NCBI GenBank assembly: GCA_964016885.1
Contig: OZ024740.1
Span: 398,846,001-398,910,000, forward strand
Source of the DNA: Eledone cirrhosa
Taxonomy: Eukaryota
Reading direction: 5' to 3'
Length of the DNA: 64,000 bases
In this document: piece after piece, positions 4,424 to 62,010 of the stretch
How the letters are laid out: each line of letters begins with the position of its first letter
How positions within the stretch are numbered: the first letter of the stretch is position 1
The notes under the pieces: model-generated
The model's database searches: none
The model's input: the letters and a program-made list of their open reading frames with translations, nothing else
Told to the model about the DNA's origin: nothing
Made by a program: the position numbers and the translations under genes

Positions 4424-4994
4424 ACACGTGTGTATACATATATGTATAATTATATATACAGTTTATGTACAACATATGTATTTATATGTATATATATATA
4501 AACATGTACATGTATATTGTGTATATATAAGCATGTGTATATATATATAAACATGTATATTTATATAAACATGTATATATATATAAGCATATTGTATATA
4601 TGTATATATATATATAAACATGTATATTGTGTATATATATATATATAAGTATATTGTGTATATTATATACATGTATAGTGTGTGTGTGTGTATATATATA
4701 TATATACACGTATATTGTGTGTATATATATATATATATATGCATGTATATTGTGTATATATATATATATATGCATGTATATTGTGTATATATATATACAC
4801 ATGTATATTGTGTGTATATATATACATATTGTGTGTATATATATACATGTATATATATATACATGTATATTGTTTATATATATATATATACATGTATATT
4901 GTGTATATATATATATATACATGTATATTGTGTTTATATATATATGTACATGTATATTGTGTGTATATATATATATATACATGTATATTGTGTG

Positions 4995-5025
<31 letters not shown>

Positions 5026-5068
5026 ATTGTGTGTATATATATATATATATATACATGTTTATTGTGTG

Positions 5069-5099
<31 letters not shown>

Positions 5100-5128
5100 A
5101 TTGTGTGTATATATATATACATGTATAT

Positions 5129-5219
<91 letters not shown>

Positions 5220-5390
5220 GTGTGTGTATATATATATATATATACACGTATATTGTGTGTGTATATATATATATATACATGTATATTGTGTGTATATATA
5301 TATATATATATACATATATTGTGTGTGTATATATATATACATGTAGATTGTGTGTGTATATATATATATATATTATATATATATATATAT

Positions 5391-5428
<38 letters not shown>

Positions 5429-5509
5429 ATTGTGTGCATATATATACATGTATATTGTGTGTATATATATATATACTGTGTGTATATATATATATAAAAA
5501 CATGTATAT

Positions 5510-5543
<34 letters not shown>

Positions 5544-6790
5544 AAAACATGTATATTGTGTATGTATATAGATATATATATATATATACACGCATATGTA
5601 CACGTATATATACTATGTATGCATATATATATATATTGTATATATAAACTATATAGTGTGTACATGTGTGTATATATGCGCACGTGTGTGCATATATACA
5701 TGTATTTATATATGTAATGTGTATAAATATATATATCATGTATGTATATATATATGTATTCATGTATATACATATATTCATGTATGTATATATATGTATT
5801 CATGCATCATGCATGTATATCTATTTGTATATAATGCATGTATGTATATATATTCATGCATGTATGTATATATATATTCATGTATGTGTATATATATTCA
5901 TGCATGTATGTATATATATTCACGCATGCATGTATGTATATATATTCATGTATATATGTATATATATTATATGTATATATATTATGTATATATATATATT
6001 GTGTATATATGTATATATATATTATGTGTAAATATGTATATATATTATGTGTAAATATGTATATATATTATGTGTATATATGTATATATATTATGTGTAT
6101 ATATGTATATATATTATGTGTATATATGTATATATATTTATGTGTATATATGTATATATATTTATGTGTATATATGTATATATATTTATGTGTATATATG
6201 TATATATATTTATGTGTATATATGTATATATATTTATGTGTATATATGTATATATATTTATGTGTATATATGTATATATATTTATGTGTATATATGTATA
6301 TATATTTATGTGTATATATGTATATATATTCATGTGTATATATGTATATATATTCATGTGTATATATGTATATATATTCATGTGTATATATGTATATATA
6401 TTCATGTGTATATATGTATATATATTCATGTGTATATATGTATATATATTCATGTGTATATATGTATATATATTCATGTGTATATATGTATATATATTCA
6501 TGTATATATATTCATGCATGTATATATATATATATATTTGTACACATACATACACTTAATGTATATACATATGCACACATATATATGTTTGAAAATCAGT
6601 AACTGATATGTATATGTGAACATATGTATAAAATTGCAGTTTTATATTGATATATGTAAACATCAGTTTAGATTTGTAATATGTGTAATATATATATATA
6701 TATATTTATTTATTTGTGTTTGTATGTATACATGCATATGTGCACAAAAAATGATTCTTATATATATATATATATACATTGCTATATGCA
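4424..6790. repeat. Compound TA/TG micro/minisatellite, ~2.4 kb, intronic
   Basis: ACATGTATATTGTGTG(TA)n units over ~4480-5560, CATG-containing variants over ~5740-5950, and a 24-bp unit TATATATGTATATATATT(T/C)ATGTG over ~6120-6500. Confidence 0.95.
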
Positions 6791-7270: not shown

Positions 7271-7370
7271 GTTCACAAGAAAAGAAGCTGAGAAGGTTGG
7301 GAAATATTTCTTGTAAAGCAGCAAGACACCTGGCAGTGCTAACAAAGAGTAAAGCCATTGTAAAGATTTG
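7271..7370 (+). other. Putative 100-nt 5' UTR exon of the NKRF-like gene
   Basis: Pyrimidine tract, then ttttaaatag| acceptor at 7270, a purine-rich body and a TTG|gtatgt donor at 7371. Confidence 0.45.
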
Positions 7371-9369
7371 GTATGTGACAGTCAGTGGTTGTGATGTGGT
7401 AGGAGACCTTGTTTTAAAGGAATTACACTGTTATCTAATGCTGTATTTGGTATTGTACATACAATGCAACATTCGATAACTGTAATTTCAATCACTAGGT
7501 CTTCTGCCTCATCGCAGACCTAAAAACATTCATTCATTTTGCTACAAGTAAATCCAAATTATACAAAATTATTTTGCTATTAACATTTTTGTAGAGCTAG
7601 ATGGTAAGACATTAACAGATTATACCAATCTTAGCGTTAAACATGGTTTAAATTTTTTTCCTCTAACCTTAGCTATTAGATTTGTTTTTTTTTTTTCTAG
7701 TTCGTTTCTGATATTTTAGTTTGATTTACAATATAATTATTTTTAATTAATTTACTGGTGTTAAACTTGAGAATGGGTGTTTCTATAGTTAGATGGTAGA
7801 TTTTTATTTTTTATTTATTTATCATAGCCACCAATTGAGTTAATTTGGATTTACTTGTTGCTGCTCTGTTGTTTAAAAGGGATTCCAATAGTCTTGTAGG
7901 CTCTTGGTTTACCTTTTATATTGTATTTTGTTTATTGTCACTGTTTGTTTCTGATGATCTACAGCACAGTTGTGCATTGATTTCATCTCAGAAACAAACT
8001 ATATGCTGCTATGTACATATTGTCACTCTCCAGTATCAGAAAGCTGCCATATTAAAAAACACTTGCACAAAAAAGGAATAGTTGAAAACCAAATAGATTC
8101 AAGTTATCAGCTAAACTCTTAATTTCAAATGACTTATTTCCTAAATATGCCCCTAAGATGTATTTATATTCTTCAAAAATTAAAAATGTTATATATAAGT
8201 CAAAATCCTTGTTATTTGGCATAACTCCAAAAAAGAATAGTGAATATGGGGTTATAGAACTAATTCAAAGCTGAACCTAAAAACAAAGCAGTTGCTGTGA
8301 AAATGACTAAGAATTTGGTTTGGAACATCCAGGTTAATTTTATGTTGTATAAAAAGTTTTTTCTGTAATTTGTACCAGCTTCAACTGTTCAGAGGAATAC
8401 GAGTTTCTTAAGATGTGGTTTGTAATTAAAGCATGTTTGGGATATTTGTTAGGTGTAGTTGAATCACTGGTTTTTGAAGACTAACATTTACCCATTTAGC
8501 TAAGGACTTCAACAGAAAACTAATTGCAACAATGCTCTTAATATTTGTTGCAGGATAGTTATCTAGATTTTGAATTTTAAGTGATAATGGACTTTTAAAA
8601 CTGAACCAATTTTGCACTTGTCAGCAAAAGACAGCATTTTAGACAATTTAATTTTGGTTACTGAACCTGATTTCCATTTAATAAAGCTGCTGAATTTAAA
8701 GAATAAAACGCTTGTGATTGTTTAGATAACTTGCATGTTAAGGAAATGAATGATATGCATAATTCGTGTTGAATGGTGTCTGAATTATGAGAAGCATTGA
8801 CAATGTGACATTTACAAATTTTAGCATTTTCCAAGAGTTTTTAAAATAAAATTTGATGCAATTTTAAGTTGTCTAAATTATTGAATTGTTTCAATATTTT
8901 GATAACTTAAGCACAGGTGGATAAGAAAAAAAATAGTTTATCTTTTGAATCTTTTTTTTTTTTTTTTTTTTTTTTAAACCAAATAGTGAAGATTGAAAAA
9001 TCTGTAATACATCTTATAAAACTTAATTTATCTTAAAATCAAAATCAATTCAATATTGTGTTAAATATCTACCATGAGAAATCTGAATAATTTTATACAT
9101 TATATAAGACTACACCAAACAGAAATGTAATAGTTAATTTTCTGAAGAGCCTTGCTGATATAACACTTCTATAAGAAGAATGAGTTTGATTTTCATCCAT
9201 TATTAAAATTTTATAATTCTACAAGAATTAATGTATTAAAACAATCATTAAAAATACAAATGTATTTCAGGTATGTGTGTGTGTCTGTATATATACTCAC
9301 ATATATACATACGCACATTCACATATATATATTTACATACACTCATTCACATGTTAAATAGTTTAAACT

Positions 9370-18428: not shown

Positions 18429-19823
18429 TAATGAAAAATGTCATTTTACTTAATCTCTCCAAATTCTTGATTATTTTCAAAATCATTTGAAAACTGTTTC
18501 ATGAGAAAGAGTTATAACGTTAGAAGCCTACAGCTGTTAAGAAGACTCTTTGTGTTTGATTTAGACAAGTATTAAGATAAGCTAATTATTCTAGTTTTTC
18601 ATTACTAACTTGAGATTGTTGGAAATATATTTTGATTTCCAACTGCTTTATTATCCACCCTTGCTGCACTGTACTCGTGATGTGTTTACTTTTTTGTAAT
18701 ATTCAATTTAAAAAAGTATGCTTCTTTGGTAATGTTTTAAAGTTTTAGCATTTTATGTTGACTGCCTCTAATTTTCTGCTCCACTTTTGACATTTCAAAT
18801 GATTGCTAATTACCAGTTAGTTAGATTTAATGTACTGTATACATTTAGTTTTAAATTATATAGTAGATCCATTTTTGTCACAGATTTGATTACCTTTTCA
18901 ATTCATGTCAACCCTGGGGGAAGGAAATAGGGAGGAGTTCATGTAAAATATGTAGAACACTCCAATATTATTTGATGTTTGGATTTTAAGTGCTTGATGT
19001 ATGGAATAGCAACTGATACTTTGTTCTGATAGTCCTTACAAGTATCTAATTTGTGACTGCATATATTAATCAAAAAGAAAATATAGGACCAGTGCCATAT
19101 TTGAAATAATTTTTTAACGTGTCTTAATAGTTTGAATTGAAGATATTCATGCTTAACTATGAAATCAAATGTTTAGGTTGTATTTCATATTGACACAACT
19201 TTTTAGATTTATATGGTGTTATTCGATGAAATTAAAATGTTTTTTAAGATTAACCATATCCCAAAAATGGATAAATTCCTTGTTGCTAAAGTGATCCAGA
19301 TATTTTGTTTACATATTGTACTTGGAGATAGTTAAGAATGAAACTTAGTTTTAGTTGTTTTAGCTTATATCTCAGCTAATCAGTTTTTACATTATTCTGG
19401 ATTTAAAAGAATCACTTTCTAATGGTTTCCTATAGGGCACACATAACAATAACTTAATTGTAGACTATTAGTAACTATTATTTCAATCAAATCTCTTAAC
19501 CTATAAATTTTTATTTCCTGGCATCTTTTTCTACAAATCAATTATGTCATCAAGTGAATTTTGCCAAATAGAATATTCTCCAACTTTCTATTCAAGATGG
19601 TTAGTAAATTGGGCATGTACCTATTTTTAATCTCCAATTTATTAAAGTTAATATATTGTCTTACTAATTAATATGATTAAAGATTATACACATTGTCGTT
19701 AAAATTATGGTAATCTTACATATATAAATATTTTTGAAATAAACTATTTCTACTTGGGTAATGTTTGGATTTTATGTTTGTATGTTTTTTTTATTTTGCA
19801 GGTGACTGCACCAGATTTTAACT

Positions 19824-20799
19824 ATGAATCGAGGTGGAGTCAGTCAGTGGTCAGGTGGCAAAGAAATGTCTGGCTTTGATTACAATTCAAATTATGGCAA
19901 TCACTGGAATACTGGAGCAACAGCCTGGGATGGTATGGGAAGCAGTAATCTTATCAACAGTAGCAGTAACAGCAACAACTTTTCTACTAGCTATGCTGCC
20001 GGATTATCTAGCAATGTTAGTGGTTACAAACGTCAGTGGCAGTCAGCAAGTCCAGGAGAAGAGAAAAAAAGTAACAAAATGATGAAATTGAACCAGTCAT
20101 ATGGTAGTAGTCAAGCAGATCAATACGGTAGTGTCGATGCAATGTATTCCAATCAATCTGGTCAGTACAATGCAAACTGGAATGACTCAAAGAGGAAAAG
20201 TGCTACATCAAATTGGGGGTCAGTGGCACAATACAATAACAGTAATAGCAACAGCCATTGGCAGGGAAAATCTCCGCAAAAAGGTATGAAAAATTTTGGA
20301 TATCAGGCAGGATATCAGGGTAACGACTATTGCTGGGATTACTCTGCTGAACAATATGTTGATGAGTCAGAATTTGGTGAATTTGGTGCTGGTTATTTTG
20401 ATAACCAAGTGGCATTTGATGATTATTACGTTGCCGATCAAGCTTATCAGTATGATCAAAAACAGCGTGGCGGTAAATTTGGGGGTCGAGGACAACGCGG
20501 TTCTACCTCTAATCGCGGTGGACGTATTGGAAACCAGCCAGTCTGGGGTCAATGGCCTGGTGAGGATACTACTACTTTGACATTTGGGACCGCTGCATCA
20601 AGTCCTTATGGTAGAGGCCGACGTGGTGCTGGAAGAGGTGGTGGTGGTGTTGGATCTGAAATAAACCGCATCCGAGATGCTATTCGAACTGTTCAAGGTT
20701 ACAGTGACATTGATCTAAGCTTCTTACTTGATGCATCCGATTCTTTTCGACAAGGGAATCAGTATAAAGGAAAATCTGGCAGAGGAACTGGCATGGATG
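19824..20799 (+). CDS. NKRF: NKRF-like protein, coding exon 1 (low-complexity G/S/N/Q/Y and RGG/RG-rich N-terminus)
   Basis: Acceptor ttattttgcag| at 19801, in-frame TGA at 19803-19805 upstream of ATG 19824, and G|gtaagt donor at 20800 (phase 1) matching the next exon. The symbol denotes the family; this is probably a divergent paralogue. Confidence 0.88.
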
Positions 20800-21006
20800 G
20801 TAAGTTGATATATTAAATTATATTTAAATGAAAACATTACAGTACAAATCTTATATTCAATTAACCATTCTTGTAAAATTTTCAAAATTTATATAATAAA
20901 TTCATTCATGCGTGCATGCATGCATGTGTGTGTGTGTGTGTGTGTCTGAGAGATTGATACTTTCACTTTATTGTTTTAATAATTTTATTTTTAAAAATCT
21001 TTTTAG

Positions 21007-22612
21007 CAAAAAGAGGTGCTGCTTCACGGGGAAAACTACAGCGTGGTGGTTTGACAAATTTTGGAGATCGAGGTTCATTGAAAGCTGGTCTACGAAACCT
21101 CCAGGCTGCTGCAAAAGGACTAACTCAAGGAGCCAAAGGAAAAATTGTTAAATCTGTCTCCGTGGTAGGAGTTAATTTACCTGCCGATACTTCAAAAATG
21201 ACTATATCAGAAAAAATAAAATATTTTACTCTTTGGCTCAAGCGTGATTACCCTAAATGCAATGCTATTCAAACTATTGAAAATGCTTTGACTAGCTGCA
21301 AACTGAAATTAGATCATTCTTATGATGTTGAAGAATTAGTGCGCATTGGTGGCCGATCAATGTACACTGCCAAACTAACAGTAGAGGGTAAATTCATGGC
21401 TAGAGCTGTAGCTGCTAGTAAAAAGGAGTTGAAACATGAAGTTTATAAAAAAGCAGTTGAGGTTCTGATGAAGCAATCTGTTGCATCCATTGTGAAACAG
21501 AAAGATCCAGGTCCAGAAAAGATGAGAGCAGAACTTACTAATTCTCTTGCCAAGAATAAAACTGAACCATCATGGGAAAAAGTGGTAGATATTTGTAAGG
21601 AAAAAGGTATGAGTTCTCCTGCCGAAAAAACATTTCATGGCAATGAGAAACAAGTGGGTTTTCAACAATTAATTGCACAGCTCAAAGCTAGTACTCCTCA
21701 ACCTGACAATGAAATCTCTGCCTTTATCCAAGCCTTCTCTGCTTCACATTGTACTTTGGAACATACTTACACTCCATCAGATTCCAGATTACCTAATGGG
21801 AAGGCTGTATTTTACGGCAATGTGAACATTGGAAATGTGGTGGTTGGACGAGGTATGGGTTGCAAGAAGAAGGATGCGAAACATGAAGCCTATAAACAAG
21901 CCATTGACTTCATCAGGAATAATACCCTTGAAGTTGTATTGAAGGGTAATAAAAAGCAGCCAGTTGAACATTCTGGTTTTAATATATCTAATACAGAGGT
22001 GAAATCTCCACGAACAACTGGAGAAACAGCTACCTTCACTGATTTGCCATCCAAGCTAGAAGCATTAATCAAATTAATTAAAGAGTCTGCATATCGATCC
22101 AATACAGTAAATGCTGTTGATACAATGGCTGTCCAGTGTTGTTTGTCACCAACCTGTCTTTATCGCAAAGTTGAAGGTGACATGCAGAAACGAACCTTAG
22201 CATGTGAACTTTATTTGGACAATCTTCTAATAGCAAAAGGTGAAGGTGACACCAGAAAGGATGCCCAAATTGGTGCCTATACAAAAGCATGGGAAGTTCT
22301 TAGCACCAGCACACCCAACTACCTGATCAGTGAGCATCATAATCTTACCATGAAAGATAAACTTGATCCAATGGTAATAGATATAGTTGTGAAAGGATTT
22401 GGAAAATATGGTGAATCTAATTTGCCAAGACTTCGCAGACTCAGAATTCAAACTCCAGAAAATTCTAAAACTATTGAGGATTTAGTGATTATGGAACATG
22501 AAGACTGGAAATATGATCGGCAGCGGCATGCTTTCTGTATTCTCAACAACAGTTCTACAATGTGTGGCATGTTGATGGAATGGGAAATTGAACCTCAAGG
22601 AGATGTTTTCAA
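21007..22612 (+). CDS. NKRF: NKRF-like protein, coding exon 2 (three dsRBD-like domains and the start of a fourth)
   Basis: ttttag| acceptor, open frame AKRGAASRG...QGDVF, donor AA|gtaggt (phase 2). dsRBD-type C-terminal helices SKKELKHEVYKKAVEVL, GCKKKDAKHEAYKQAIDFI and GDTRKDAQIGAYTKAWEVL. DLVIME...CILNNS resembles NKRF. Confidence 0.92.
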
Positions 22613-22741
22613 GTAGGTGGTTTTCTATGTTTTACATGTAAAAATATTAGTCTGAAAGTTAAAGCTACTATTTGTCAGATATTTATAATCATAAAAGTGT
22701 TAGCTGAATAACTGTACAGTTGATTTGCTGAGCAAGTTTAA

Positions 22742-22963
22742 CCCTTTAGCATTCAAATCGGTCGTATCCAGCCAGAATTTTTCTCACCTCTTTCTCTTTA
22801 AACCAGCTGTAACTAGCTGCTCATACTGATGTTAAAGTATTGTTCTCTAAATAAATGATATCAAAATCTCATAGCGTTGATATTATGTGAGATAATTATG
22901 TGAAATAAAGTGTTTACCGTGAAAATACAATAGTAAATATAGAATAATGTAAATACTAAAGAG
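22742..22963. mobile_element. piggyBac-like MITE, family P1
   Basis: TTAA|CCCTTTAGCATT ... AATACTAAAGAG|TTAA; homologous to the two other copies. Confidence 0.85.
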
Positions 22964-23384
22964 TTAAAACAGACTATGAACACTTCATAGTATGCTTAGA
23001 ATAAAGTGAATCACTTGCTTTTTGTTTCAGCATTGAATAATTAGCATTAATTTTTGAAAATAATTGGAATTTGTAAAGGCATCTAACAATGCTAGCTTGT
23101 GCAATGTGTTAGCCTAGTGTTATTTTAATGTATCTGATTAGCCGCATCTCTGTTTCAGTTCTCAAATAGAAGTATTTCCCTTATGTCTTTGGGAAGAGAA
23201 CAAATATCCCAATTTCTTTTTCTTTTATGTCTCTGAGGTCAGTCATATGTCAGAAACAAAGGTTCCAGCATCTTAAAAGACAATGAATTAGTAAGATTCT
23301 AGTAAGAATATACTATTAAAAAAAAATCTATCTGAACTAATTCCCCAAACAACATATGCATAAGTTTTATAGTATATTTACATC

Positions 23385-23592
23385 TATTGTAAAGTGGTTG
23401 TGTGTAATGACAAAAAGCATCCAGTACACGCTGTAAATGTGGTTGGTGTTTGGAAGGACATCCAGCTGTAGAAACCAAGCCAAAATCAGTTCTGTATGAG
23501 CAAGACATCATTTGAGCTGGCTTGTTCCACAACAGGTCAACACGTTTAACCATGCTAGCATGGCAAAATGGACGTTAAACGATGATGATGAA
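23385..23592 (+). mobile_element. RTE 3' end / RTE-tailed SINE fragment, family S2
   Basis: CTGTAAATGTGGTTGG...CATCCAGCTGTAGAAACC...CATGCTAGCATGG..GGACGTTAAACGATGATGATGA. Related copies at ~24325-24610(-), 27260-27360(-), 28020-28455, 32215-32265, 44100-44200(-), 49060-49281 and 59050-59262. Confidence 0.75.
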
Positions 23593-24711
23593 TCTTGAAA
23601 AAAGCAAGTATTGTTTCTGTATAAGTCATATCAAACATTTGTACAAGTCATACTAAACTAATGATGAATGTATCTTAGTCAGTGTCATAATATTTATCAG
23701 TTAAATATCAGTTTTATTCTACTTATGTAGCTGTTTGCAACATACTATATAATCTTCTACTTTAGTGATTGGGGCATACTAATTTTTAAGGTTATGCATC
23801 ATTGCTCAAACCTTCAATTGATTGATTCAATCTCATTGTAATTAGCATAATATGGTTTCTCATTTCTTACAACCTTTTTGATACCAACCACCTAAATCCA
23901 CCCCTGGTGCTACAGTATAAACTTTATTTTAAAGTGTTTCTTTTTATCTAAAAACCTCCAATCATAATTCTGTATTAGAAGCTTTAAGTTATGCTCCAAA
24001 CACCAGCTTAATATTAAGAAATTTATATTATTAATTTCTTCCAAATTTCCTGTTATTTTCAAAATTATTTGAAAATCATAGACAATGTCATTAATTAGAA
24101 AAATGGTAACAAAAGTGTTTATAGTAGTTTCTTGTGTCAGTTTTATTTTTCTGTGCTAGCAAAAGTAGAAATTTGAACTTTGTGTAGTTAGTAAGATTGC
24201 TTTATAACTTCTAATCATTAATATAAGAAATGGAAAAAGAACCTGTATTCAGTCAAGCAAACTGTCAATCACAATCTTAACAGATGCAACAGGATTTGAA
24301 TATTTGATCATATGGCCTTGTATTATAATCATTATCATCATCACTATTTTCCTTGCTTGCATGGGTTAGATGGATTTTCATGTGCTGCGGCCAGACTAGT
24401 TAAATGACCATGTCCTGCTTGTATGCTCCGCTTTGGCTTAGTTTCTATGGCTAGATGCCCATCCTAATGTCAATCATTTTACAGTGTGTGCTCGGAGCAT
24501 GGTTTCTCCGGCTGGATGCCCTTCTTAATGCCAACCACTTTACAGTGTATACTGGGAGCATTTTATTGTCTCCAGCACTTCTACCTTACAGGGTGGACTG
24601 GTTGCTTTTCATTGTTGCACCAACGCTATCAATTATTAATTATATATTTTGAATGTTAAAACATTTTTCTCAGACTTACATTTAATTTAATTTAATTTTG
24701 TTTTCAAACAG

Positions 24712-24835
24712 ATGTAAGATGTATATCCAGAAGAAACTAATAGCTGAGGCCTCAGCATCTTCAAAGAACAATGCTCGTAACACTGCTGCTGCAATTGCTT
24801 TGATGAAACTCTATCAGACTCAAGATGTTATCAGA
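24712..24835 (+). CDS. NKRF: NKRF-like protein, coding exon 3 (rest of the fourth dsRBD-like domain)
   Basis: ttttcaaacag| acceptor; reads (K)CKMYIQKKLIAEASASSKNNARNTAAAIALMKLYQTQDVIR; AGA|gtaag donor; phases 2/0 fit the neighbouring exons. Confidence 0.92.
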
Positions 24836-24919
24836 GTAAGAATGTCTTTCGTTTTTTCACCATATATGTATACTTGTTGATTTTATATATATGTAGTATT
24901 GTTGCATAATTTTATCTAT

Positions 24920-25640
24920 GATGTAGTGGGATAACGAGTAGACTAACAAGAAGGGAGAACTTTGCTTGTAGAAGATGCAGAGGAAAAATCGAGAGGAAGA
25001 CTACTGATGATATAAACCTTTTCCAGTCACAGGAAGGATACATAGACGTGGTTGATAGCTTCTGCTATCTAGGTGAACTATTTAGCAGTGGAGGAGGGTG
25101 CGCCAAGAGTATAATAGCTAGAATAAGGATAGGATGGAAGAAGTTTAGAGAACTACTTCCACTGCTGACAACAACAGTTTCTCCTTATGCACAAAAGGAA
25201 GGCTGTATGATGCCTATGTGCAGTGCGCGATGCTGCATGGTAGTGAAATATGGGTTGTGACAGCAGAGGACATGTGTAGATTGGAGAAAAATGAAGCAAT
25301 CATGTTTCATTGAATGTGCAATGTAAATGTGAGAGAAAGGCAGAGCTTGGACAAGCTGAGTTTAAAGGGAATCTGAGATGGTGTGTAGGAGAGAAGACTG
25401 CATTGGTATGGACATGGACAATGACTGATGGGTGAAGAAATGTCAGGAAATCCCAGTGGAAAGAAACCGCGATAGAGGACAACCAACAAAGACCTGGACA
25501 AAGGTTGTGACAGCTAACCTCAAATCACCAAAACTGGCAGAGGAGATGACAAAGGAACACAAGTGGAGAGATGCCGTGTTGAGGACCCATCCAACGCATG
25601 TAAGCATGGAAAGCGGACGTAAAAACGATGATGATGATGA
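24920..25640 (+). mobile_element. 5'-truncated RTE LINE with (GAT)n tail
   Basis: VDSFCYLG...IARIRIGWKKFRELLPLL and the degenerate RRLxWYGH..RGxPxKTW motifs of the RTE C-terminus, followed by a GATGATGA tail. Confidence 0.85.
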
Positions 25641-25641
25641 A

Positions 25642-26339
25642 ATGTAGTAAATGAATTGAGAGAAACTGGGCATAAGAGGGATCATATGCAGTGTGCAAGA
25701 GAGGGGATTGCGTTGGTATGGCCATGAGATACGTTTGAAGGATGACATCTGTATAAAAATGTGCCGGGTGCTCAAAGTTGATGGAAGCTATGGAGTAGGA
25801 AGACCTGGGATAAGGTGATAAAAGCTGACCTTGCACATTTGCACTTCTCAAAAGCAATGACACAGGATTGAGATCTTTGGAAGTTATGTAGTAATACAGA
25901 AGACCCACCTCATGCGCACAGGTTGAAACAGACATCTAGTATGCATCACTTAACCCCTATTTTCACTCGCCCTTCCATACACCTCCCATGCTCTAACACT
26001 CTGCCCACATCTTAATCACCTCACCATTCTCCCTTTACATGCTAGTCCACATTGTAAAGTGGCCGTTTTGGTGCCAAGATAAAAAGAGCCTGGTTGACAC
26101 TAAAGTGGTTGTTATGCTGCAATGATAAATGGATCCAGTCCATACTGTAAAGTGGTGTGTGGGTGTCACAACAAAAGCATCCAGTACACTGTAAATGTGG
26201 TTGGCATTAGTAGGAAGGGTATCCAACCATAGAAACCAAGCCAGAAGCAGTTCTGTATGAGTAAGACAGTCACCTGACCTGAAATGGGACAACCTGTCTA
26301 ACCCATTTAAGTGTAGAAAATAGATGTTACATGATGATG
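25642..26339 (+). mobile_element. Second 5'-truncated RTE LINE with a long 3' UTR
   Basis: VNELREKLGIRGI..LRWYGH..KTWD, then an ACC-rich UTR with CTGTAAAGTGG repeats and a (GAT)n tail. Same layout as 60922-62010. Confidence 0.8.
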
Positions 26340-28474
26340 ATGTAGTATTGTTACATAACTGAATATTAGGTCTTTGGACTTGTTTTCTACAATGTTCCTG
26401 CTAATGTTTATTCCTCTCAGACCTTCTTCAACTGCACTTGGGTAGGTTTTTAATGCTATAATTAGAAAGTATTGGAAAATGTCTCACCCAGCAAATCTTC
26501 ACAACTATTAACTTGGTGTAAATGAAAAATGATCACCACACATGTCATGATTGTTATAAAATACCGAAGTTACAATCTAGTGTTTATAAATGCTAAGTCC
26601 ATCAACTATAATCCATGAATGATGATGATCATTATTATTAGTTAACATCCACTTTCCTTGATAGCAAGGATTTGACCGCATCAATATTAAAAAAAGCAGT
26701 TATTTTGAACAGTCCAAATCTTGTAAACATTTTTATATATGTTATTTCCCTCTGCAAACCCATATACTCAAATAGGACACCAAAATGTTTACTCCCTTGT
26801 ATTTGAAACAGATTTGTAATTAATCATCATCATATAAGAATAGAAATAAAACACAATAAAAAGAGTAGCATAGTGAATATAAGAAACATCTTAACCCTGT
26901 AATTACAATATTTTAAACTAAAATACATGCTATGTGTGTTTCAGTTAAATTCTAAAATAACCAAGAGCCAAGACTGGTTTTGTAAAACAAGTATAACATA
27001 ATTGATATATGAATGTGGTTTTTTGAGGGGAAACAAATTTACGAAAGTGTCTTAAATCTATAACAATTTTTGTCTCAAAACTACTTTAATTGGCAAATTC
27101 AGTAAAATGTAAAACTATTTAAATTTTGTTTAAATGTCAATATAAAATTAATTATTATCTCATATTTAGCTGGGTATACAGCAGAATTATAATAGAAAAG
27201 AATTGTGTACATGATTGGATTTTCAGTTGAACTTGAGTACTTAAAAAGCACTTGGACCATTATTGTTGCTTTTATGGCCACCTTTTCCATGCTTGTATGC
27301 ATTGGATAAGACTTCTTTGAGGCAGGTTTTCTATGGCTGGATGCCCTTCCTAATGGCAACCTATACCATATTTTAAGTATGGTAAATATCACTAATGTTC
27401 ATAGAATCACTATGCAGCAGAACAAATTGTTATAAATGATATCGATATGATTAAATATTTTTGTTGTTTCACTGGTCTGTCCACTGAGAGGGCTGTTCCT
27501 TTCTGGTGTTGGCATTCTCAGTACTTTTTTTAGTGACCGTCAATTTTGTTTTCCTTCATCTAGATCTGCCTTTCTCACAATAGTTATTTTTTTTATAACC
27601 ACCTCCATTCAACTGTGTTGCAATAGCTGCTCAGAATTGCTGATGATTACATCACTTTTGAGTCACCTCTAAAACAACTTTAAAATAAGCAGCTTTGTAT
27701 CATAGAACAAGCTGCAGTTTCAAACAGTTAGGTATTAAATACTTTGTGCAAGCATACAAAACATGAGCATTACAGTACCACAGACCAGATAGATCCAGTG
27801 TTAAAATGTTAACCAGATATGTTTACATTACAATAATAGTAGCCATATAAATACAACAGTTTTGACAGTACCTGTCATAAACCCTGACATCATATTTGTT
27901 ATTCTTTTTCCATGCCTCCTGTTCTCTCTCACCAAGCATATCTGTTTTAAAACAAGGTACACTCCATCTCCATATTTTAAAGAAGGCCTTTCAGTTAGTG
28001 ACTGACAACCTCCCTAGTGTTTATGCCATATGATGCACTCAGTACTTTGTAAAATGGTTAGTATCAGGAAGAGTATCCAGTTGTAGAAATCATGTCAAAA
28101 GAGTTGAATTATTCAGTCACATCAGACATAGCAATCTCTCCAGTGTTGGTGCCACAAAAAATGGATCCAGTACACTCTGTATAATATCCAGCCATAGATA
28201 ACATGCTAAACAAAGAGTTCAGAGGACAACCTCCCTGGTACCAAAGCCATGATGAAATGCACCCAGAACACATTTCTAAGGGGTTGGTGATATAAAGGGC
28301 ATCCAACCACAGACACCATGCCAAAACTGGAATGTAAGCAAGCAAAATATTGATCACCTGCCTGTTTGTGAAAGGACAGTGACTCTGATTAAATATTGAC
28401 TTAACCCATGTCCAACCCATGCCAGCAAGGAAAGAATGGTTGCTAAATGATGGTACCACTAATTAACTTTTGTT

Positions 28475-29012
28475 AGCCGCTCTCCAGCCATCTATTTAAA
28501 GCTGTATACAGCTATGGGACGACCACACTTGGAATTCGCATCATCAGTCTGGAACCCCTATCTTGCTCAGAACATTGACCTCCTGGAAACTGTTCAAAGA
28601 CGTGCAACCAAGCGCATACCCTCCATCAGACACCTACCATACTCTGAACGCCTTGCTTCCCTGGGCATGGATTCATTGAAGCTCCGACGTCTGGCAATGG
28701 ATTCATTGAACAGCACAGCTCCCATGACTTTCGGAAACATTTTTTCACGCTCAGAGTTGCTGAAGCATGGAACAAACTGCCTGCGTCAGTTGTTAGCTGC
28801 CAAGACACTGCATCCTTTAAAACCCTCATGCTTGCCGAAATTCGCCAAAACTACACCTGATGTACCCCTTCCATACACATGTGTATATCATGACTCGTGC
28901 ACTGTTCATTTTCCTGACGTTTGTACATTTCCCTATGTACTATACATACACTTTTTGATGAGTTGTAGTGCACCTGAGCACTGTACACAATATTTCATTA
29001 TTATTATTATTA
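28475..29012 (+). mobile_element. CR1/L2-type LINE 3' fragment with (ATT)n tail
   Basis: RPHLEFASSVWNPYLAQNIDLLETVQRRATKRIP motif. Homologous to 38471-38737(-) and 56915-57410(-). Confidence 0.88.
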
Positions 29013-29614
29013 AATGATGATGATTATTCTATCAATAAGTTATAGTGAAGGGGTAGGTTGGCCAAAGTTTCTGCAGGATCCAACTTGCTTTATTTCCATG
29101 GGATCAATAAATATTAGTGTTATTTATTTGCTGATACAATCGACAATTGATCATGAAAAATCAATATCTTATTATAGAAATATTACATTGCTTCTAAATT
29201 TACCAGAAATAAAGTTTAGTTTTCTATTATTAATGAATCAGTTTATTGATGTTCACAGAACTGTGTACATGCATAGGAACTCAACATTTTAATTTAAGAA
29301 AGATAATGTAGTGACCCATTTAGCAAAGCTGAACTATTGTATTATTAAATCAAATGATAATTTAGTTATTTATTCAATTCAGCTATATATTAATAAAAGC
29401 TTTTTGGCATATAGCTAAAGTTATATTTCCTCAATCATTATAAAATGTGTATGCATCATTGATCTGTTTTTATTGCTTTTCTTCAATTTCTTATAAGGAA
29501 AGTCATTTAAGGTTTCTTTGTTATGGATATATCATACAAGTATAATTTTAAATATTTTTGTCAAAGGTTTTAATCCCACTTATACAAGTGTTCTTATTCT
29601 TTATACAATATCAT

Positions 29615-29762
29615 CTATGTCAGTTATGGGCCACATGCAGCCCATGGGCTGCATGTGGCCCATTTGGCTTGTTGAATGGCTCACCTGAGTTTTTTAGTAG
29701 TGCGACCCACCTTATGAACAGCCACATTCCATGTGACCCACTGCTTGAAAATGATTACTCAT
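29615..29762. mobile_element. hAT/Charlie-like remnant containing a perfect 38-bp palindrome
   Basis: The GGCC..GCAGCCC..GGGCTGC..GGCCC motif resembles hAT subterminal repeats; GC-rich patch in an AT-rich intron. Confidence 0.4.
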
Positions 29763-29906
29763 GTCTGATCTATATAATGCTCCTCTGAACTGGAAAGTTT
29801 ATTTTTTTTGTTTGCTTTAACCATTACAGTTAAAGCCATGTTGGAACACCGCCTTTGACAAAAATAAATGATACTTTGTTTTTATATATATTTTTTTTGC
29901 TTTCAG

Positions 29907-30482
29907 ATTGTGAGAAGAGATGACTCAACTCGCTGGATTCCCTATGAACAGATTGTTCAGCAAGGAAAAATTTTGGAAAATGAATGTTCTGGAAATATTG
30001 ATCTTCTTGGAGGGCTGCCTATTTTTGAAAAAACTGATAACCAGTCTGAAAACAAAGATGGGAAAGAGAAGAATACTGATGGCGATGGTTTGAACAAATT
30101 TGCTGTCAAGTACATGGAACAGTTAATGAATGAGTGTGTGGAAAAGGAGACTCTAGATGATCTCATCTTTGGTCCTGGCATCACTTCTCTTGAAAGGAAG
30201 TTAGTCACAAATATTGCATTCAATTTACATCTGAAAATGGATGTTAGGCAACATGAAGGCAAAAATTACTTGTGCATTTCTAAAAAACTCTCTCCAGAAG
30301 AAATAAGTTATTTTCTTAAAGTGCACAATACTGGCCATGGTAAATATGTATTGGTGCCTAAAGTGGAATTACCTGGTTCAATGGAAACCTCTTTCAGCGA
30401 CAATTCGTCCTCAACCAAAACCTCAGAAATATCTAATTTGCAAGGAAAGAAAGATTTTACTATGGATGTCAGTGTGAATTAG
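29907..30482 (+). CDS. NKRF: NKRF-like protein, last coding exon (degenerate R3H domain)
   Basis: ttttgctttcag| acceptor in phase 0. LNKFAVKYMEQLM...DLIFGPGITSLERKLVTNIAFNLHLK...YLCISKK...GKYVLVP matches the layout of the NKRF R3H C-terminus. TAG at 30480-30482. Spliced CDS is 976+1606+124+576 = 3282 nt (1093 aa). Confidence 0.92.
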   Translation: MVRRDDSTRWIPYEQIVQQGKILENECSGNIDLLGGLPIFEKTDNQSENKDGKEKNTDGDGLNKFAVKYMEQLMNECVEKETLDDLIFGPGITSLERKLVTNIAFNLHLKMDVRQHEGKNYLCISKKLSPEEISYFLKVHNTGHGKYVLVPKVELPGSMETSFSDNSSSTKTSEISNLQGKKDFTMDVSVN

Positions 30483-40479: not shown

Positions 40480-42680
40480 ACTTTGCTCCAACATACTCCA
40501 TGGAGACGTCCCGCGCTTCGACGACCAGCTCTCTACCAAGGGTTTTGCTGCAGCCGTCCAGGGTTCATCCAAATCGAAGCTCGTCAACCGGATCTCTAAG
40601 GGAGCTCGAAATAGCTTTGCACGTGTCCTCTCCAATCTATTGAAAAACGTTTGTTTATCCAACAATATGTTTGACTGGCAGAAACTGTTTTTGTTCCCTC
40701 TCATCTCACTTCACGCGCACAATGCGGAATCGGGCTCCCTCACGTCCTTTCTCAAGCAATAGTTCCAGCTGTTTGAGTCCACCAAAACCACTTCTCACCT
40801 CAGTTTGAAATCGAGCTCGGTGCCGATAAACCTCAAGTGTGCTGTTAATGCTAAATTCAGCGAATTTGTCATTAAGTGGGCTGTCCGTCTCCTCTCTTCT
40901 CTGTCCTCTCTCATTTCGTGTAATTCTGATTTTTTTTGAGCGACTGAAAGAGAAGCACCCATCGGAACCACCAAAATACTCGAGATCGGTCTACACCACT
41001 GATAACATCAGAAAGGCGACTACATTCTTCCCCGCTGGTTCAGGCGCGGGGATTGACGGCCTTCGACCTCAACACCTCAAGGATCGTACCTCCTTATCGC
41101 CCGGTGACACCAAACTCAAGCTATTGGAGAGTCTGACTCAGTTTGTGAATCGATTCTCTTCAGTGAACGTTCTCCCCTATATCCGCCCACTGTTCTTCGG
41201 CGCGAAATTATTCTGTCTCACTAAACCCAACAGAGACCTGCGCCCCATTGCGGTTGGTTGCACCCTTCGCCGACTTACTGCAAATGTGTGTTTGCTATCG
41301 GTCTCTGACTCACTGTCGGAGAAAATTTCCCCCATCCAGCTAGAGGTAGGCACCAAGCTGGGATGTGAGGCTGCTGCCCACGCTACCAGAGCCTTTACCA
41401 ACTTACCCTCCTTGTCCCTCAGGGTCATCTTCAAACTTTACCTCAAGAACGCGTTCAACTCCGTCGACTTAATCTTCGAAAGACTCGAGTGTTTGGTCAA
41501 TGTCAGACTCTCGCCAGCGTCCCGCGATCAGGCTGCGTTGCCCAAGCGATTTGAGGTCTTGGTCTTCGTAAATGTTCGTCCTTCTCTCCGCTTTGCTTCC
41601 TTTCTTCCACCCACACTTGCTCCACCCTGGTGAGAAACATCCTGTCCTCTCCAGCATGGACTAGTTCCAGCAGGGAGTTGGATGAAGCTCTCCAACGATG
41701 GAGTGAGTTGGGCTTGTCTGTTCCTGACAAGGTGGAGTACAGTCGAAGTCAGAGAGCTTGGGACAGAATAAATTCGAAGGCCACTTTCGACCAGTCGGAT
41801 CAGTTTTCAAGGTGTCACTTACTGCCAGCCAGATCAGTTTTGAGGGTGCCACTTACTGCTAGCGCCAAATACAGAGGCGACTGGGTTGATGCCCTACCCG
41901 TGGCTAACGTTGATGGCCTACTCAGCTTGGACGAACTTCATGTTTCCATTGTCCTCAGTGGGAGATGACGTCTGTACGGGCCTGAGGTGTCGATGTGGCA
42001 AACTCCTCGACTCCACAGTCTTTCTTATCGCCTGAATTCCGGTGGCTTCGCACGTCACACGGAGCTAAGCCTCATTTTCTAGAGAGCTTTGGCCCGGGCA
42101 CACATCCCCTCAATTTTGGAACCGTCTGGGTTGTCCAGAATTGATGGGAAAAGACCTGACGGCCTTACCCTGTGCCCCTGGTCGAGAGGTAATGCGTTAT
42201 CTGGGTTGTGACAGTTATGACTGGATGCCGCGGTTAGGGCGAGAACCACAGCTTCCGCAGCCAAAGAACAAAATACTAAAATACCGTGATCTGTCAGCCA
42301 ACTACATTTTCCAGCCTCTGGCGTTCGAGACGTTTGGGAGAGTCGGGTTACTGACTGCAAGATTCCTATCTTCACTGGCGGCTCGCCTAACCGAGGTAAC
42401 TGGTCAAGCTCTCGAGGGTGCTTGGTTGTTCCAGCGCATGAGCTTCGCCATCACCCGAGGTAGCTACGCGAGCGTGCTGGCTTGTCTCAAACATTATTAG
42501 AGAGGTTTCCCAGTGTTCCTCGCGATACTGTTATCTTTTACTCTGGTAGCGGCTCGATTGTCTACCCCTTTCGCTTGCCTTTTGCTGAATGTGGTCCCAG
42601 ATGTGTGAGCTAACTGCTTCTGTGAGTGTTTCTTTTTCTTTTCTCTTTCTTTTTTTTTCTGTTTTCCCTCTCCCTTTCCT
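40480..42680 (+). mobile_element. Non-LTR retrotransposon with restriction-like endonuclease (CRE-like), RT core deleted
   Basis: GC-rich block with GSGAGIDGLRPQHLKD, RPIAVGCTLRRL, GCEAAAHA and KLxLKNAFNSV, then [28 protein letters not shown] and FQRMSFAITRG; several frameshifts. Confidence 0.8.
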
Positions 42681-59529: not shown

Positions 59530-60915
59530 TTCTCATATATGAAATTATTATTTCTTCTCCCATGTGGAGAAATGCATGGAGATGATCAGCAAGAGCAATG
59601 TGGAATTCCGAAGAGTTGACACTGAGGAACTGGGCCTCCTCCTCCTCAGACTTACTTGTGACAGGGAATATCTAGATAAGTACAACCTTAGCTGTGTCTG
59701 TAAAAGGTAGACCTCCCACCATCACCTCAATGGCTAAGAAGACCCCATGAAAAGATGGAGCGAGTGGACTAGAGCTGTATAAACCCCTGGAAACCAAGAC
59801 CGGGTGAGAAAAATGATTGCACATGTGGTGGGAGCAACTATTAAAACTACTCTAAAGAGTCATGTGGCTGATCTGTTCATGGTGTGGTAGAACAGGAGAT
59901 TCGAGGAATGCTTAATTGAAAACTCCATAGCCATAACCATGTACTCTGGCTATGTTGACAATATCAATATAGTGGTTAAAACTACCCCACAGGAGAGTAA
60001 TCATGAACCAGAGCTAGAAGCTAGCACCATGGGGAACATCCAGAAAATAGCTAACTCCATCCACCAGAGCATTAACGTACCCTAACCGTAGATTACCCAT
60101 GTCAGACACTGAACTTTGGATGGAAACTAAGAATGGGAAACCCCAAATACTCGATTCATATTATAACAAAACCATGGCCCTCATGTACTTGGTCCTCAGA
60201 AAAACTGCGAAACTAGAATGTAGTCTATATACAGAGGGACAATGCAAAAACAAGATAACATATATAGGAGAAACAGCCCATAGCACAGGAGAGAGAGTAA
60301 AGGAACACTGGTGAGACCTTAGGGAGAAGAAAAGCTCATCAGTACTATACCAATATGCCAAACTAGAACATGGGGACTCAATAGATAACATAGAAATAAA
60401 GATCCTATCCACACATAGAACTGACACAACACTCAGACAAATTACAGAGGCAACTCACATAATAGAAAATAGACCTAACCCGAACAGAAAACACGAGTGG
60501 AATAGTAATGGCCGAGAACTTAATGACTGAAGACAGAATCAGAAAAGAGAGAGAAGAAAAAGACAAAAGACAAAAAATAAGACATAAACAGCTGATGATA
60601 AAAAACCCTCACACATTTAAAACACACATAGACATGACAAACACATACACACACACACACAGACGAAAGTGCAGGTGCAAACGCATGCACAAACATGACA
60701 CACGAAAAATGCACCACAAAACGAAATAACGACATAACGACAAAAGGAAATAGAAATGTAAGACCAGAAAAAGAAGATGCAAAAAAAAATCGATAGTTAT
60801 TGAGGAAGTCACAGATTGGTGTGACGAAAGAGCTTTGACAGAAGAATAAAGATAAAGTGAAAGTTATATGGTGCATGTGTTCAATTGACAAAATGACCAT
60901 CCCGGAATATAACAA
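59530..60915 (+). mobile_element. Penelope-like element, decayed (RT remnants, GIY-YIG endonuclease, pseudo-LTR)
   Basis: GYVDNI at ~59950 (degenerate RYVDD), C..YIGETAHSTGERVKEH and RQITEA GIY-YIG motifs, and a hammerhead-like core at 60796-60839. Confidence 0.8.
60796..60839 (+). ncRNA. Decayed minimal type I hammerhead ribozyme
   Basis: gtta-(T)TGAGGA-A-GTCACA gattgg TGTGAC-GAAA-gagc-TT-tgac: perfect stem II, but core C3 is mutated to T. Confidence 0.55.
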
Positions 60916-60921
60916 TATATA

Positions 60922-62010
60922 TATAAAAGATGTAGTGGGATCACAGGTAAGCTAACTAAGAACATAGACTTTACATGTGGCCGGTGTTCTGGTGCAATAA
61001 GTAGCAGCAAGTGCCCACAAAATACTAGCTCTTTCAATTGCGCAGAGGGTTCTATAGAAATAGTGGACAGCTTCCGTTACCTGGGCGATAAAATCAGCAG
61101 TGGGGGAGGGTGCTCTGAAAGTACTGTAGCTAGAGTCAGAACTGGTTGGAAAAAGTTCAGAGAGCTTATACCACTATTAGCTGCTAAAGGGTTCTCCCTA
61201 AAAATGAAAGGCAGGTTGTACGATGCCTGCATACGAACAGCAATGTTGCATGGTAGTGAGACCTGGGCATTGTGTGCAGAGGATATACGCAGACTAGAGA
61301 GGAACGAAGCTTGCATGCTCCGCTGGATGTGTAACAGTAATATACGTGAACGGCAAAGCATAAACGAACTAAGGAAAAAATTAGAGATAAGAGGGATCAG
61401 ATGTTGTTTACTCGAGAGAAGGCTGCGTTGGTATGGACACGTGATGCGCATGAAAGTCGATAGCTGTATTACAAAGTGCAGGGCAATAAAGATAGACGGT
61501 AGCCACGGAATAGGCAGACCTAGAAAAACATGGGATGAGCTGATAAACTCCGACCTCACACACTTACACCTCTCCAAGACAATGTCACTGGACCGTGACC
61601 TTTGGCGGTACTCAGTAACAGAGAAGACCCGCCTTGCCAGTAGGCATCTCTAACAAAATACACCCCGTCCCGCCACCACCCCCACCCCATCCACACCACC
61701 CCGTTCTATGTAAAGTTATGTTGGTGCCGCGCCATCCAGGCCGAAACAAATGAGATCGTGTAGGTGTCACGACAAAAAAACACACAGTCCACGCTGTAAT
61801 GTGGCCGTGAAGGCAACACGGTAAAAACCTCCCAGACCCACACTGTAAATGTGGTTGGTGTTAGGAAGGGCATCCAACTGTAGAAAACCTGCCAGACAGT
61901 CCTATGCGAGCAAGACAATCACTCTTGCCTCAAGTGGGACTACCCCCGTCCAAACCCATGCAAGCGTGGAACACGGACGTTAAACGTTGATGATGATGAT
62001 GATGATGATG
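60922..62010 (+). mobile_element. 5'-truncated RTE LINE with an intact C-terminal frame, 3' UTR and (GAT)n tail
   Basis: Open 196-aa frame 61063-61653 (DSFRYLG..MLHGSETW..RRLRWYGHVMR..GRPRKTW) preceded by KRCSG..CGRC; sits between TA repeats. Confidence 0.9.

What the first reader, a model, noticed from the sequence alone, without database searches (positions are those of the whole stretch)
19824..30482. Atypical NKRF paralogue: four dsRBD-like domains, no G-patch, degenerate R3H, prion-like/RGG N-terminus
Seen: a 1093-aa spliced ORF with dsRBD-like units at ~21261-21470, 21708-21915, 22101-22302 and 22527-24812, and an R3H-like C-terminus where the R-x3-H histidine is Thr (ERKLVT, ACA at 30207). 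The linker that holds the G-patch in NKRF lacks the IGxxLLxKMGWxxGxGLG pattern, and no XRN2-binding domain is apparent. Known: canonical NKRF activates the helicase DHX15 through its G-patch and recruits XRN2 in rRNA processing. Inference: this copy has lost those effector contacts and may be a repurposed multivalent dsRNA binder, notable in a lineage with extensive A-to-I editing.
Basis: partly seen in the sequence, partly recalled or inferred. Interest (0 to 1): 0.75.

Follow-up and report, generated by a model that had tools for sequence, protein, structure and literature searches.

The report
Mollusc-wide stripped-down NKRF relative
This octopus gene is a spliced, well-conserved member of an apparently undescribed mollusc-wide family of NKRF relatives that lack the helicase- and nuclease-recruiting parts; it likely works as a non-enzymatic binder of double-stranded RNA, and it is older than the cephalopod RNA-editing boom.

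Summary
The gene has four coding exons (1093 aa) and encodes four dsRBD folds, an R3H fold without its histidine, a disordered S/N/Q/Y- and RG-rich N-terminus, and no G-patch or XTBD. Spliced contigs support it.

It is a paralogue: a canonical intronless NKRF lies on another contig. Two more G-patch-less copies and a broken partial duplicate lie on this one.

It is not a cephalopod novelty. The same architecture occurs in bivalves, gastropods (including Aplysia, which lacks heavy recoding) and a chiton; all 27 of 30 looked-up clusters that carry a name are molluscs. A cephalopod-specific origin is rejected (AU p 8e-9). The first NKRF dsRBD type is present three times, its basic RNA-binding lysines are kept, and between octopods the protein is better conserved than NKRF itself (89% vs 70%).

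Best reading: a likely nuclear, multivalent dsRNA-binding scaffold, uncoupled from DHX15 and XRN2; pathway untested. Nothing supports the editing link. Ten literature searches found no description. The scan found this family before in another genome (e1-9939978). New variant of a known kind; interest 0.42.

The parts
7271..7370 (+). Upstream 5' UTR exon (3' end shown; start inferred from an AG acceptor)
   Evidence: Loose end of the spliced contig in run X1 matches 7340-7369 exactly, once in the window; GT donor follows at 7371
19802..20799 (+). Coding exon 1 (ATG 19824): S/N/Q/Y/G-rich low-complexity region (aa 1-215) and start of the RG/RGG region; in-frame TGA at 19803 upstream of the ATG
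   Evidence: pLDDT under 50 for aa 1-380 in the orthologue model
21007..22612 (+). Coding exon 2: end of RG region, three tandem 'A-type' units (extra helix plus dsRBD), conserved family-specific linker, first half of dsRBD 4
   Evidence: Pfam dsrm 3 stretches; unit profiles cross-match; model
21204..21476 (+). Unit A1 (aa 392-482), dsRBD with conserved NAIQTIEN and KKELKH
21648..21926 (+). Unit A2 (aa 540-632), dsRBD with intact KKDAK
22044..22313 (+). Unit A3 (aa 672-761), dsRBD with RKDAQ (last lysine replaced)
24712..24835 (+). Coding exon 3: second half of dsRBD 4 ('B-type', the unit that precedes the G-patch in NKRF)
29907..30482 (+). Coding exon 4: helix plus acidic loop where NKRF has its G-patch (29916-30089), R3H-fold domain with His replaced by Thr at 30207 (30090-30374), tail and stop

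Best explanation
This is the octopus orthologue of a mollusc-wide family of NKRF relatives with no G-patch or XRN2-binding domain, which likely arose from NKRF by an early duplication and likely acts as a non-enzymatic scaffold that grips long or structured double-stranded RNA. Shown: gene model, domain order (disordered tail, A-A-A-B dsRBDs, R3H fold), absence of G-patch and XTBD, a separate canonical NKRF, phylum-wide spread, strong conservation. Inferred, step 1: invertebrate NKRF has one A-type and one B-type dsRBD, and the A unit was triplicated, which would give avidity for longer duplexes. Inferred, step 2: with no G-patch it would not switch on DHX15, with no XTBD it would not use the known route to XRN2, and the lost R3H Arg/His signature suggests the R3H nucleic-acid contact went too; so it would bind and hold RNA rather than unwind or trim it. 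Inferred, step 3: the aromatic/RG tail would concentrate protein and RNA in a granule, most likely nuclear, where it retains, shields or routes dsRNA, as Blanks- or NF90-type proteins do. No binding, location or partner was measured.
For: Canonical NKRF in the same genome has XTBD, dsrm, G-patch and R3H above Pfam cut-offs. Domain order and sequence align unit for unit with NKRF from dsRBD-B to the last strand; unit profiles show one A + one B in mollusc NKRFs against A-A-A-B here. The G-patch pattern is in 0 of 69 family rows and 27 of 27 NKRF rows (groups were first sorted by this feature, but the tree separates them on its own). R3H His is in 0 of 69 against 26 of 27, an independent count. 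Across 30 orthologues the basic helix-2 residues are kept: A1 K464 28, K465 27, K468 28; A2 K613 27, K614 28, K617 30; A3 R/K742 28, K/R743 26; B K879 30, R883 30 (that these positions contact the RNA backbone is recalled dsRBD knowledge). 26 of 27 full-length members have 5 or more RG dipeptides before the first unit (1 of 28 dropped). Identity to the Argonauta orthologue is 89% (core 91%) against 70% (C-half 80%) for NKRF. Human NKRF is pulled down by poly(I:C), though also by poly(C) and poly(dA:dT) (PMC11985509 passages). The G-patch alone is sufficient for DHX15 binding (PMC7132122 passages). A KRP motif is in 15 of 34 N-termini against 2.4 expected after shuffling, a weak hint of nuclear import because the rows are related.
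Against: No experiment on any member was found. The window protein itself has neither the KRP motif nor a classic K[KR]x[KR] signal in its N-terminus, so nuclear location is weakly based. A3 has Gln in place of the last lysine in 22 of 30 orthologues and B has an atypical motif, so these may bind protein rather than RNA. Memet et al. report XRN2 binding without the XTBD; a later review attributes this to a wrong annotation but allows a minor second site, so loss of all XRN2 contact is not shown. The unrooted tree places the family outside all sampled NKRFs, including a bird's; origin from the mollusc NKRF lineage is only not rejected (p 0.16), so the date of the duplication is open.
Confidence: 0.5

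Rival explanations
1. It stays in the ancestral pathway: a nucleolar pre-rRNA binder that chaperones spacer helices or competes with canonical NKRF for the same sites without bringing DHX15 or XRN2, so it tunes ribosome biogenesis.
For: Descent from NKRF, which is nucleolar and binds pre-rRNA spacers (PMC10511037; PMC5435916). RG-rich tails are typical of nucleolar proteins (recalled). Conservation is at least as high as NKRF's. Spliced contigs were found in 4 of 4 runs laid, though those runs were chosen for holding the gene.
Against: Repeated duplication with long branches in limpets and other gastropods (4 named copies in Lottia, 5 each in two Patella species) is unusual for a core ribosome factor (inference). 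Every known NKRF rRNA activity runs through the two modules that are missing.
Confidence: 0.22
2. It is a cofactor of small-RNA or antiviral/transposon defence (Loqs/R2D2/Blanks-like) that hands long dsRNA to Dicer or to germ granules.
For: Birth-and-death duplication across molluscs and at least 3 copies in this genome. One unnamed member carries three CCHC zinc knuckles. The fly NKRF-family protein CG31301 binds siRNA and promotes RNAi (review PMC10511037). Blanks is a dsRBD-only precedent (PMC7144943 abstract).
Against: The window's copy is the slow-evolving core orthologue, not a fast one. Top fold matches to TRBP/Loqs reflect any multi-dsRBD protein. No tissue data were obtained.
Confidence: 0.18
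3. It is a regulator of the massive A-to-I recoding of coleoid cephalopods.
For: It is a multi-dsRBD protein in an octopus, and such proteins can compete with or assist ADAR (recalled). Two further diverged copies exist in this genome.
Against: Orthologues with the same architecture occur in bivalves, a chiton and gastropods including Aplysia, which lacks extensive recoding. A cephalopod-only origin is rejected, p 8e-9. Copy number is higher in limpets than in octopus.
Confidence: 0.07
4. It is a decaying NKRF duplicate, or a mis-modelled gene whose G-patch or XTBD exon was missed.
For: Human NKRF's XTBD was once missed through a 5' annotation error.
Against: In-frame stop upstream of the ATG; no G-patch or XTBD in six frames of the window; intact orthologues across four mollusc classes, all without them; higher conservation than NKRF.
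Confidence: 0.03

Closest known systems
[quoted passage not shown]
   Same: Same C-terminal order and alignable sequence: A-type dsRBD, B-type dsRBD, linker, R3H with the NKRF-type helix and final strand. NKRFs are the next hits after family members in the profile search of 1.84 billion proteins; an NKRF cluster is the second Atlas hit (score 0.76, a lead only).
   Different: No XTBD, no G-patch, no R3H His; A unit present three times; long aromatic/RG-rich disordered N-terminus; three introns in the coding region where the genome's own NKRF is one open frame; only 22% identity to it over the shared modules.
CDKN2AIP/CARF
   Same: An XTBD-family relative of NKRF that opposes its nucleolar role (review); that it also lacks G-patch and R3H is recalled. 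Precomputed Pfam DSRM_CARF (PF26535) is listed for many family members.
   Different: CARF keeps the XTBD and works by binding XRN2; this family has no XTBD, has four dsRBDs and keeps the R3H fold.
Non-catalytic multi-dsRBD scaffolds (Drosophila Blanks; TRBP/Loqs/Staufen; NF90)
   Same: Works-like comparison: tandem dsRBDs without an enzyme domain. The model's best fold matches are TRBP, Loqs, R2D2, DGCR8, NF90 and Staufen dsRBDs.
   Different: No sequence kinship shown beyond the shared fold (13-25% identity in those matches); the A/B units and R3H tie it to NKRF instead.

Membership tests
NKRF (orthologous, functional class) | N-terminal XTBD (PF11952) | tested here: not met
   No Pfam hit; none in six frames of the window; upstream in-frame stop; genome search finds XTBD only on C19 and C13
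NKRF (orthologous, functional class) | G-patch (PF01585) between last dsRBD and R3H | tested here: not met
   No Pfam hit; linker median 75 aa with 3 Gly in 69 family rows against 101 aa with 13 Gly in 27 NKRFs
NKRF (orthologous, functional class) | Tandem dsRBD-type RNA-binding domains of A and B type | tested here: met
NKRF (orthologous, functional class) | Groups with NKRF orthologues in a tree | tested here: not met
   Family is one side of a branch, 100/99, apart from 22 NKRFs including the genome's own
NKRF (orthologous, functional class) | Stimulates DHX15 and recruits XRN2 to nucleolar pre-rRNA | not testable with these tools
   Needs biochemistry; modules responsible are absent
NKRF superfamily (paralogue by descent) | Homology of the dsRBD-B + R3H C-terminal module to NKRF | tested here: met
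   Family profile retrieves NKRFs at E 7.5e-28 and weaker; colinear alignment; unit profiles hit NKRFs in the same order
R3H domain | R3H fold (three-stranded sheet, two helices) | tested here: met
   Exon-4 model pLDDT 81.5; best matches 2cpm Z 7.5 rmsd 3.7 over 73, 2lrr Z 7.0 rmsd 3.8 over 67; middling Z, supported by Foldseek ranks 1-6
R3H domain | Arg-x3-His signature (definition in PMC3505976, PMC7708074) | tested here: not met
   Window has R-K-L-V-T; His in 0 of 69 family rows, Arg in 18 of 69; NKRFs 26 of 27 for each
CDKN2AIP/CARF | XTBD that binds XRN2 | tested here: not met
dsRNA-binding proteins (dsRBD) | Binds A-form dsRNA | not testable with these tools
   Fold and basic helix-2 residues are present; binding not measured
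Coleoid-specific editing factor | Origin or restriction in coleoid cephalopods | tested here: not met
   Bivalve, gastropod and chiton orthologues; AU p 8e-9

The most novel reading that the evidence does not exclude
Molluscs turned a duplicate of a ribosome-biogenesis adaptor into their own phylum-wide dsRNA-sequestering system: a condensate-forming scaffold that decides whether long nuclear dsRNA reaches ADAR, Dicer or innate sensors. Its repeated duplications (limpets, octopods) would tune that gate, and coleoids would have built their high editing on this pre-existing part.
Probability: 0.15. Interest if true: 0.75.

Novelty: new variant of a known kind. Interest (0 to 1): 0.42.

Why it matters
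It defines an apparently unnamed RNA-binding family across four mollusc classes, annotated only as 'uncharacterized' or 'hypothetical' in the records seen. The losses are joint and complete (G-patch, XTBD, R3H signature), while the dsRBDs multiplied and stayed conserved. That is a clean natural experiment on what NKRF's dsRBD/R3H half does without its enzymes, a question little studied even in human NKRF. It also gives a testable candidate dsRNA handler in animals with abundant dsRNA. The value is moderate because all parts are known domains, no function is shown, and the editing link is unsupported.

Tried and rejected
Homodimer prediction of the C-terminal module (aa 770-1056 of the O. sinensis orthologue): no answer, score 0.00; not used either way.

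Sequence search of solved structures with exon 2: one weak hit, E 1.4. Atlas search: best hit 0.84, probably the family's own cluster (commonest phylum Mollusca), so a lead only; a second Atlas query returned nothing.

Run search: no holder on record as RNA, so no tissue or level information. Contig depth was not used. The contig of run X24 shows no other letters over exons 1-2; this says nothing on editing because contigs drop rare variants.

A first tree timed out and was replaced by FastTree and a smaller IQ-TREE run. In some searches the 'mollusc NKRF' label of five unnamed rows was my inference. Holding the whole family with cephalopod NKRFs alone was borderline rejected (p 0.046).

PY-type nuclear signal: 5 of 34 against 8.3 expected, rejected. 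B-unit and R3H exons for the copy at C1:266.757 Mb: none found in 30 kb; they could lie further off.

Literature: 10 searches. Twelve locus ids of family members gave 0 papers; XTBD + mollusc gave 0. The one held supplement of an O. sinensis gonad transcriptome paper had no hit, and a snail RNAi-gene preprint does not mention NKRF in its main text (its supplements are closed). Subscription papers were not searched.

Considered and rejected: missed exon, pseudogene, cephalopod-specific origin. An earlier count said 29 clusters were named; the correct count is 27 of 30.
Full report
1. Observation. The four coding exons 19824-20799, 21007-22612, 24712-24835 and 29907-30482 have canonical splice ends and give 1093 aa. 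Contigs of 4 of 4 public runs laid on 19000-29500 skip intron 1, and two show exon 2 joined directly to exon 3. Run X24 matches exons 1-2 with no other letters; the other three are relatives. None of the runs is on record as RNA, so 'transcribed' rests on the intron-less contigs. One contig continues upstream into an exon that ends at 7370. A TGA in frame at 19803 closes the frame before the ATG.

2. Domains. Pfam finds only dsRBD families. An AlphaFold model of the O. sinensis orthologue (11-row alignment, mean pLDDT 55.6, pTM 0.33) shows aa 1-380 disordered and four alpha-beta-beta-beta-alpha units, the first three each preceded by an extra helix. Fold searches return dsRBDs (units 3 and 4 dominate the listed matches). 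A separate model of exon 4 (pLDDT 81.5) matches R3H domains best. Home-built G-patch and XTBD profiles find nothing in 2790 six-frame pieces of the window. The first 215 aa are 16% S, 12% N, 11% G, 9% Q and 9% Y; aa 216-385 are 22% G and 11% R with 11 RG.

3. The genome. XTBD occurs at two places: C19, a single 652-aa frame with XTBD, dsrm, G-patch and R3H all above cut-off, which is canonical NKRF; and C13, an XTBD exon whose gene I did not model. Two further G-patch-less copies lie on C1. One at 266.757 Mb has three A-type units and no B or R3H found within 30 kb. One at 220.60 Mb has A, B, R3H and a long tail, shares the two intron positions around exon 3 with the window gene, and is followed by a partial duplicate with stops. 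Genome searches score only the best candidates, so these counts are floors.

4. The family. Word searches gave 11 and 26 relatives; the named ones are octopus, bivalves, abalone, Gigantopelta and the chiton Liolophura. A profile search of 1.84 billion proteins gave 469 hits at E 0.001, of which 150 were listed. The proteins of 400 aa or more that rank above the first G-patch-bearing hit (E 7.5e-28) have no G-patch or XTBD. I looked up 30 clusters: 27 carry a name and all 27 are molluscs, among them Aplysia, Lymnaea, Pomacea, Littorina, Lottia (4 loci), two Patella species (5 loci each), Tegillarca and Argonauta. O. vulgaris, Argonauta, Mercenaria and Mactra have both a G-patch NKRF and a family member.

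5. Anatomy against NKRF. In 97 rows that reached the C-terminal end of the profile (69 family, 27 NKRF, 1 odd row left out of the counts), the G-patch pattern is in 0 of 69 and 27 of 27, and the R3H His in 0 of 69 and 26 of 27. The grouping was first made on the G-patch, so the His count and the tree are the independent tests. Unit profiles show mollusc NKRF as XTBD-A-B-G-patch-R3H and the window gene as tail-A-A-A-B-R3H; some gastropod copies have two A units. [quoted passage not shown] Across 30 orthologues the basic helix-2 residues are near-invariant in A1, A2 and B, and partly changed in A3. 26 of 27 full-length members keep an RG-rich N-terminus although its sequence is not conserved. 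The window protein is 89% identical to its Argonauta orthologue, against 70% for the NKRF pair; octopus-to-bivalve identity over the shared modules is 43-46% against 42%. This is purifying selection, not decay (inference).

6. Origin. FastTree on 97 rows and IQ-TREE on 35 rows x 206 columns (dsRBD-B plus R3H, G-patch linker left out) both separate the family from NKRFs (100/99 in the latter). AU tests: family plus the clade holding all named mollusc NKRFs, p 0.16 (not rejected); family plus cephalopod NKRFs, p 0.046; window orthologues plus cephalopod NKRFs, p 8e-9. The trees are unrooted and the stem is long. The simplest reading is a duplication before chitons and shelled molluscs split; an older origin with losses elsewhere is not excluded.

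7. Mechanism. NKRF tethers DHX15 through its G-patch and XRN2 through its XTBD to pre-rRNA (PMC10511037, parts 1-2 of 3 read; PMC5435916 and PMC7132122, passages; bioRxiv 10.64898/2026.06.30.735655, passages). Both handles are gone here, with the Arg/His signature that defines R3H (PMC7708074 and PMC3505976, passages). What was multiplied and kept is the dsRBD array and a condensate-type tail. I therefore favour a non-enzymatic scaffold that binds long or structured dsRNA with avidity and holds or routes it in a granule, probably nuclear (0.5). Rivals: a nucleolar NKRF competitor or chaperone (0.22), a small-RNA/defence cofactor like Blanks (PMC7144943, abstract and outline) (0.18), a coleoid editing regulator (0.07), an artefact (0.03). 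Human NKRF binds poly(I:C) but also poly(C) and poly(dA:dT) (PMC11985509, passages), so specificity for dsRNA is not given. Nuclear location rests on ancestry and a weak motif count that the window protein itself does not meet.

8. The editing link. Aplysia and Nautilus do not show extensive recoding (PMC8382921, passages), yet Aplysia has the A-A-A-B-R3H architecture. Nothing here ties the gene to ADAR. A secondary role in editing cannot be excluded.

9. Novelty. Ten searches of the held library found no description of this family or architecture; subscription papers and closed supplements could still hold one. An earlier, unreviewed note of this scan (e1-9939978) describes an octopod offshoot of the same family in another genome and reaches a similar reading. 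I saw it after my own analysis and do not count it as support. Verdict: real; a new variant of a known kind; not a member of NKRF proper; interest 0.42.

Noticed in passing
G000:C1:266.757-266.759 Mb (L002): Diverged paralogue: one open frame with three A-type dsRBD units that ends just after the third; no B unit or R3H found in 30 kb. Possibly a dsRBD-only derivative.
   Followed up: partly
G000:C1:220.603-220.630 Mb (L011-L015): Paralogue with one A unit, B unit, R3H-like domain and a long low-complexity C-terminal tail, sharing two intron positions with the window gene, plus a neighbouring partial duplicate with in-frame stops.
   Followed up: partly
Proteins P0226 (Mercenaria), P0232 (Mactra), P0166: These clam-type NKRFs keep G-patch and R3H but have no listed or detected XTBD and carry an RG/tyrosine-rich N-terminus instead: a possible independent first step in the same direction.
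   Followed up: partly
Proteins P0080, P0134, P0140, P0161 (unnamed): Long proteins with about 6-10 NKRF A-type-like units followed by one B-type unit and no G-patch or R3H: a separate expansion of the A unit in an unidentified organism.
   Followed up: partly
Proteins P0066 and P0115 (unnamed): P0066 is a family member with three CCHC zinc knuckles in front; P0115 has XTBD plus repeated dsRBD-R3H blocks and no G-patch.
   Followed up: no
G000:C13:543031-543225 (L005): Second XTBD-coding exon in the genome, likely a CDKN2AIPNL-like gene; not modelled.
   Followed up: no
window 24922-25260, 28463-28860, 40830-42500, 60913-61653: Open frames that look like remnants of LINE-type retrotransposons, two of them inside intron 3 of the gene (family resemblance recalled, not searched).
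   Followed up: no
window 4463-6606: Long AT-rich simple-repeat tract upstream of the 5' UTR exon that yields many spurious I/Y-rich open frames.
   Followed up: no
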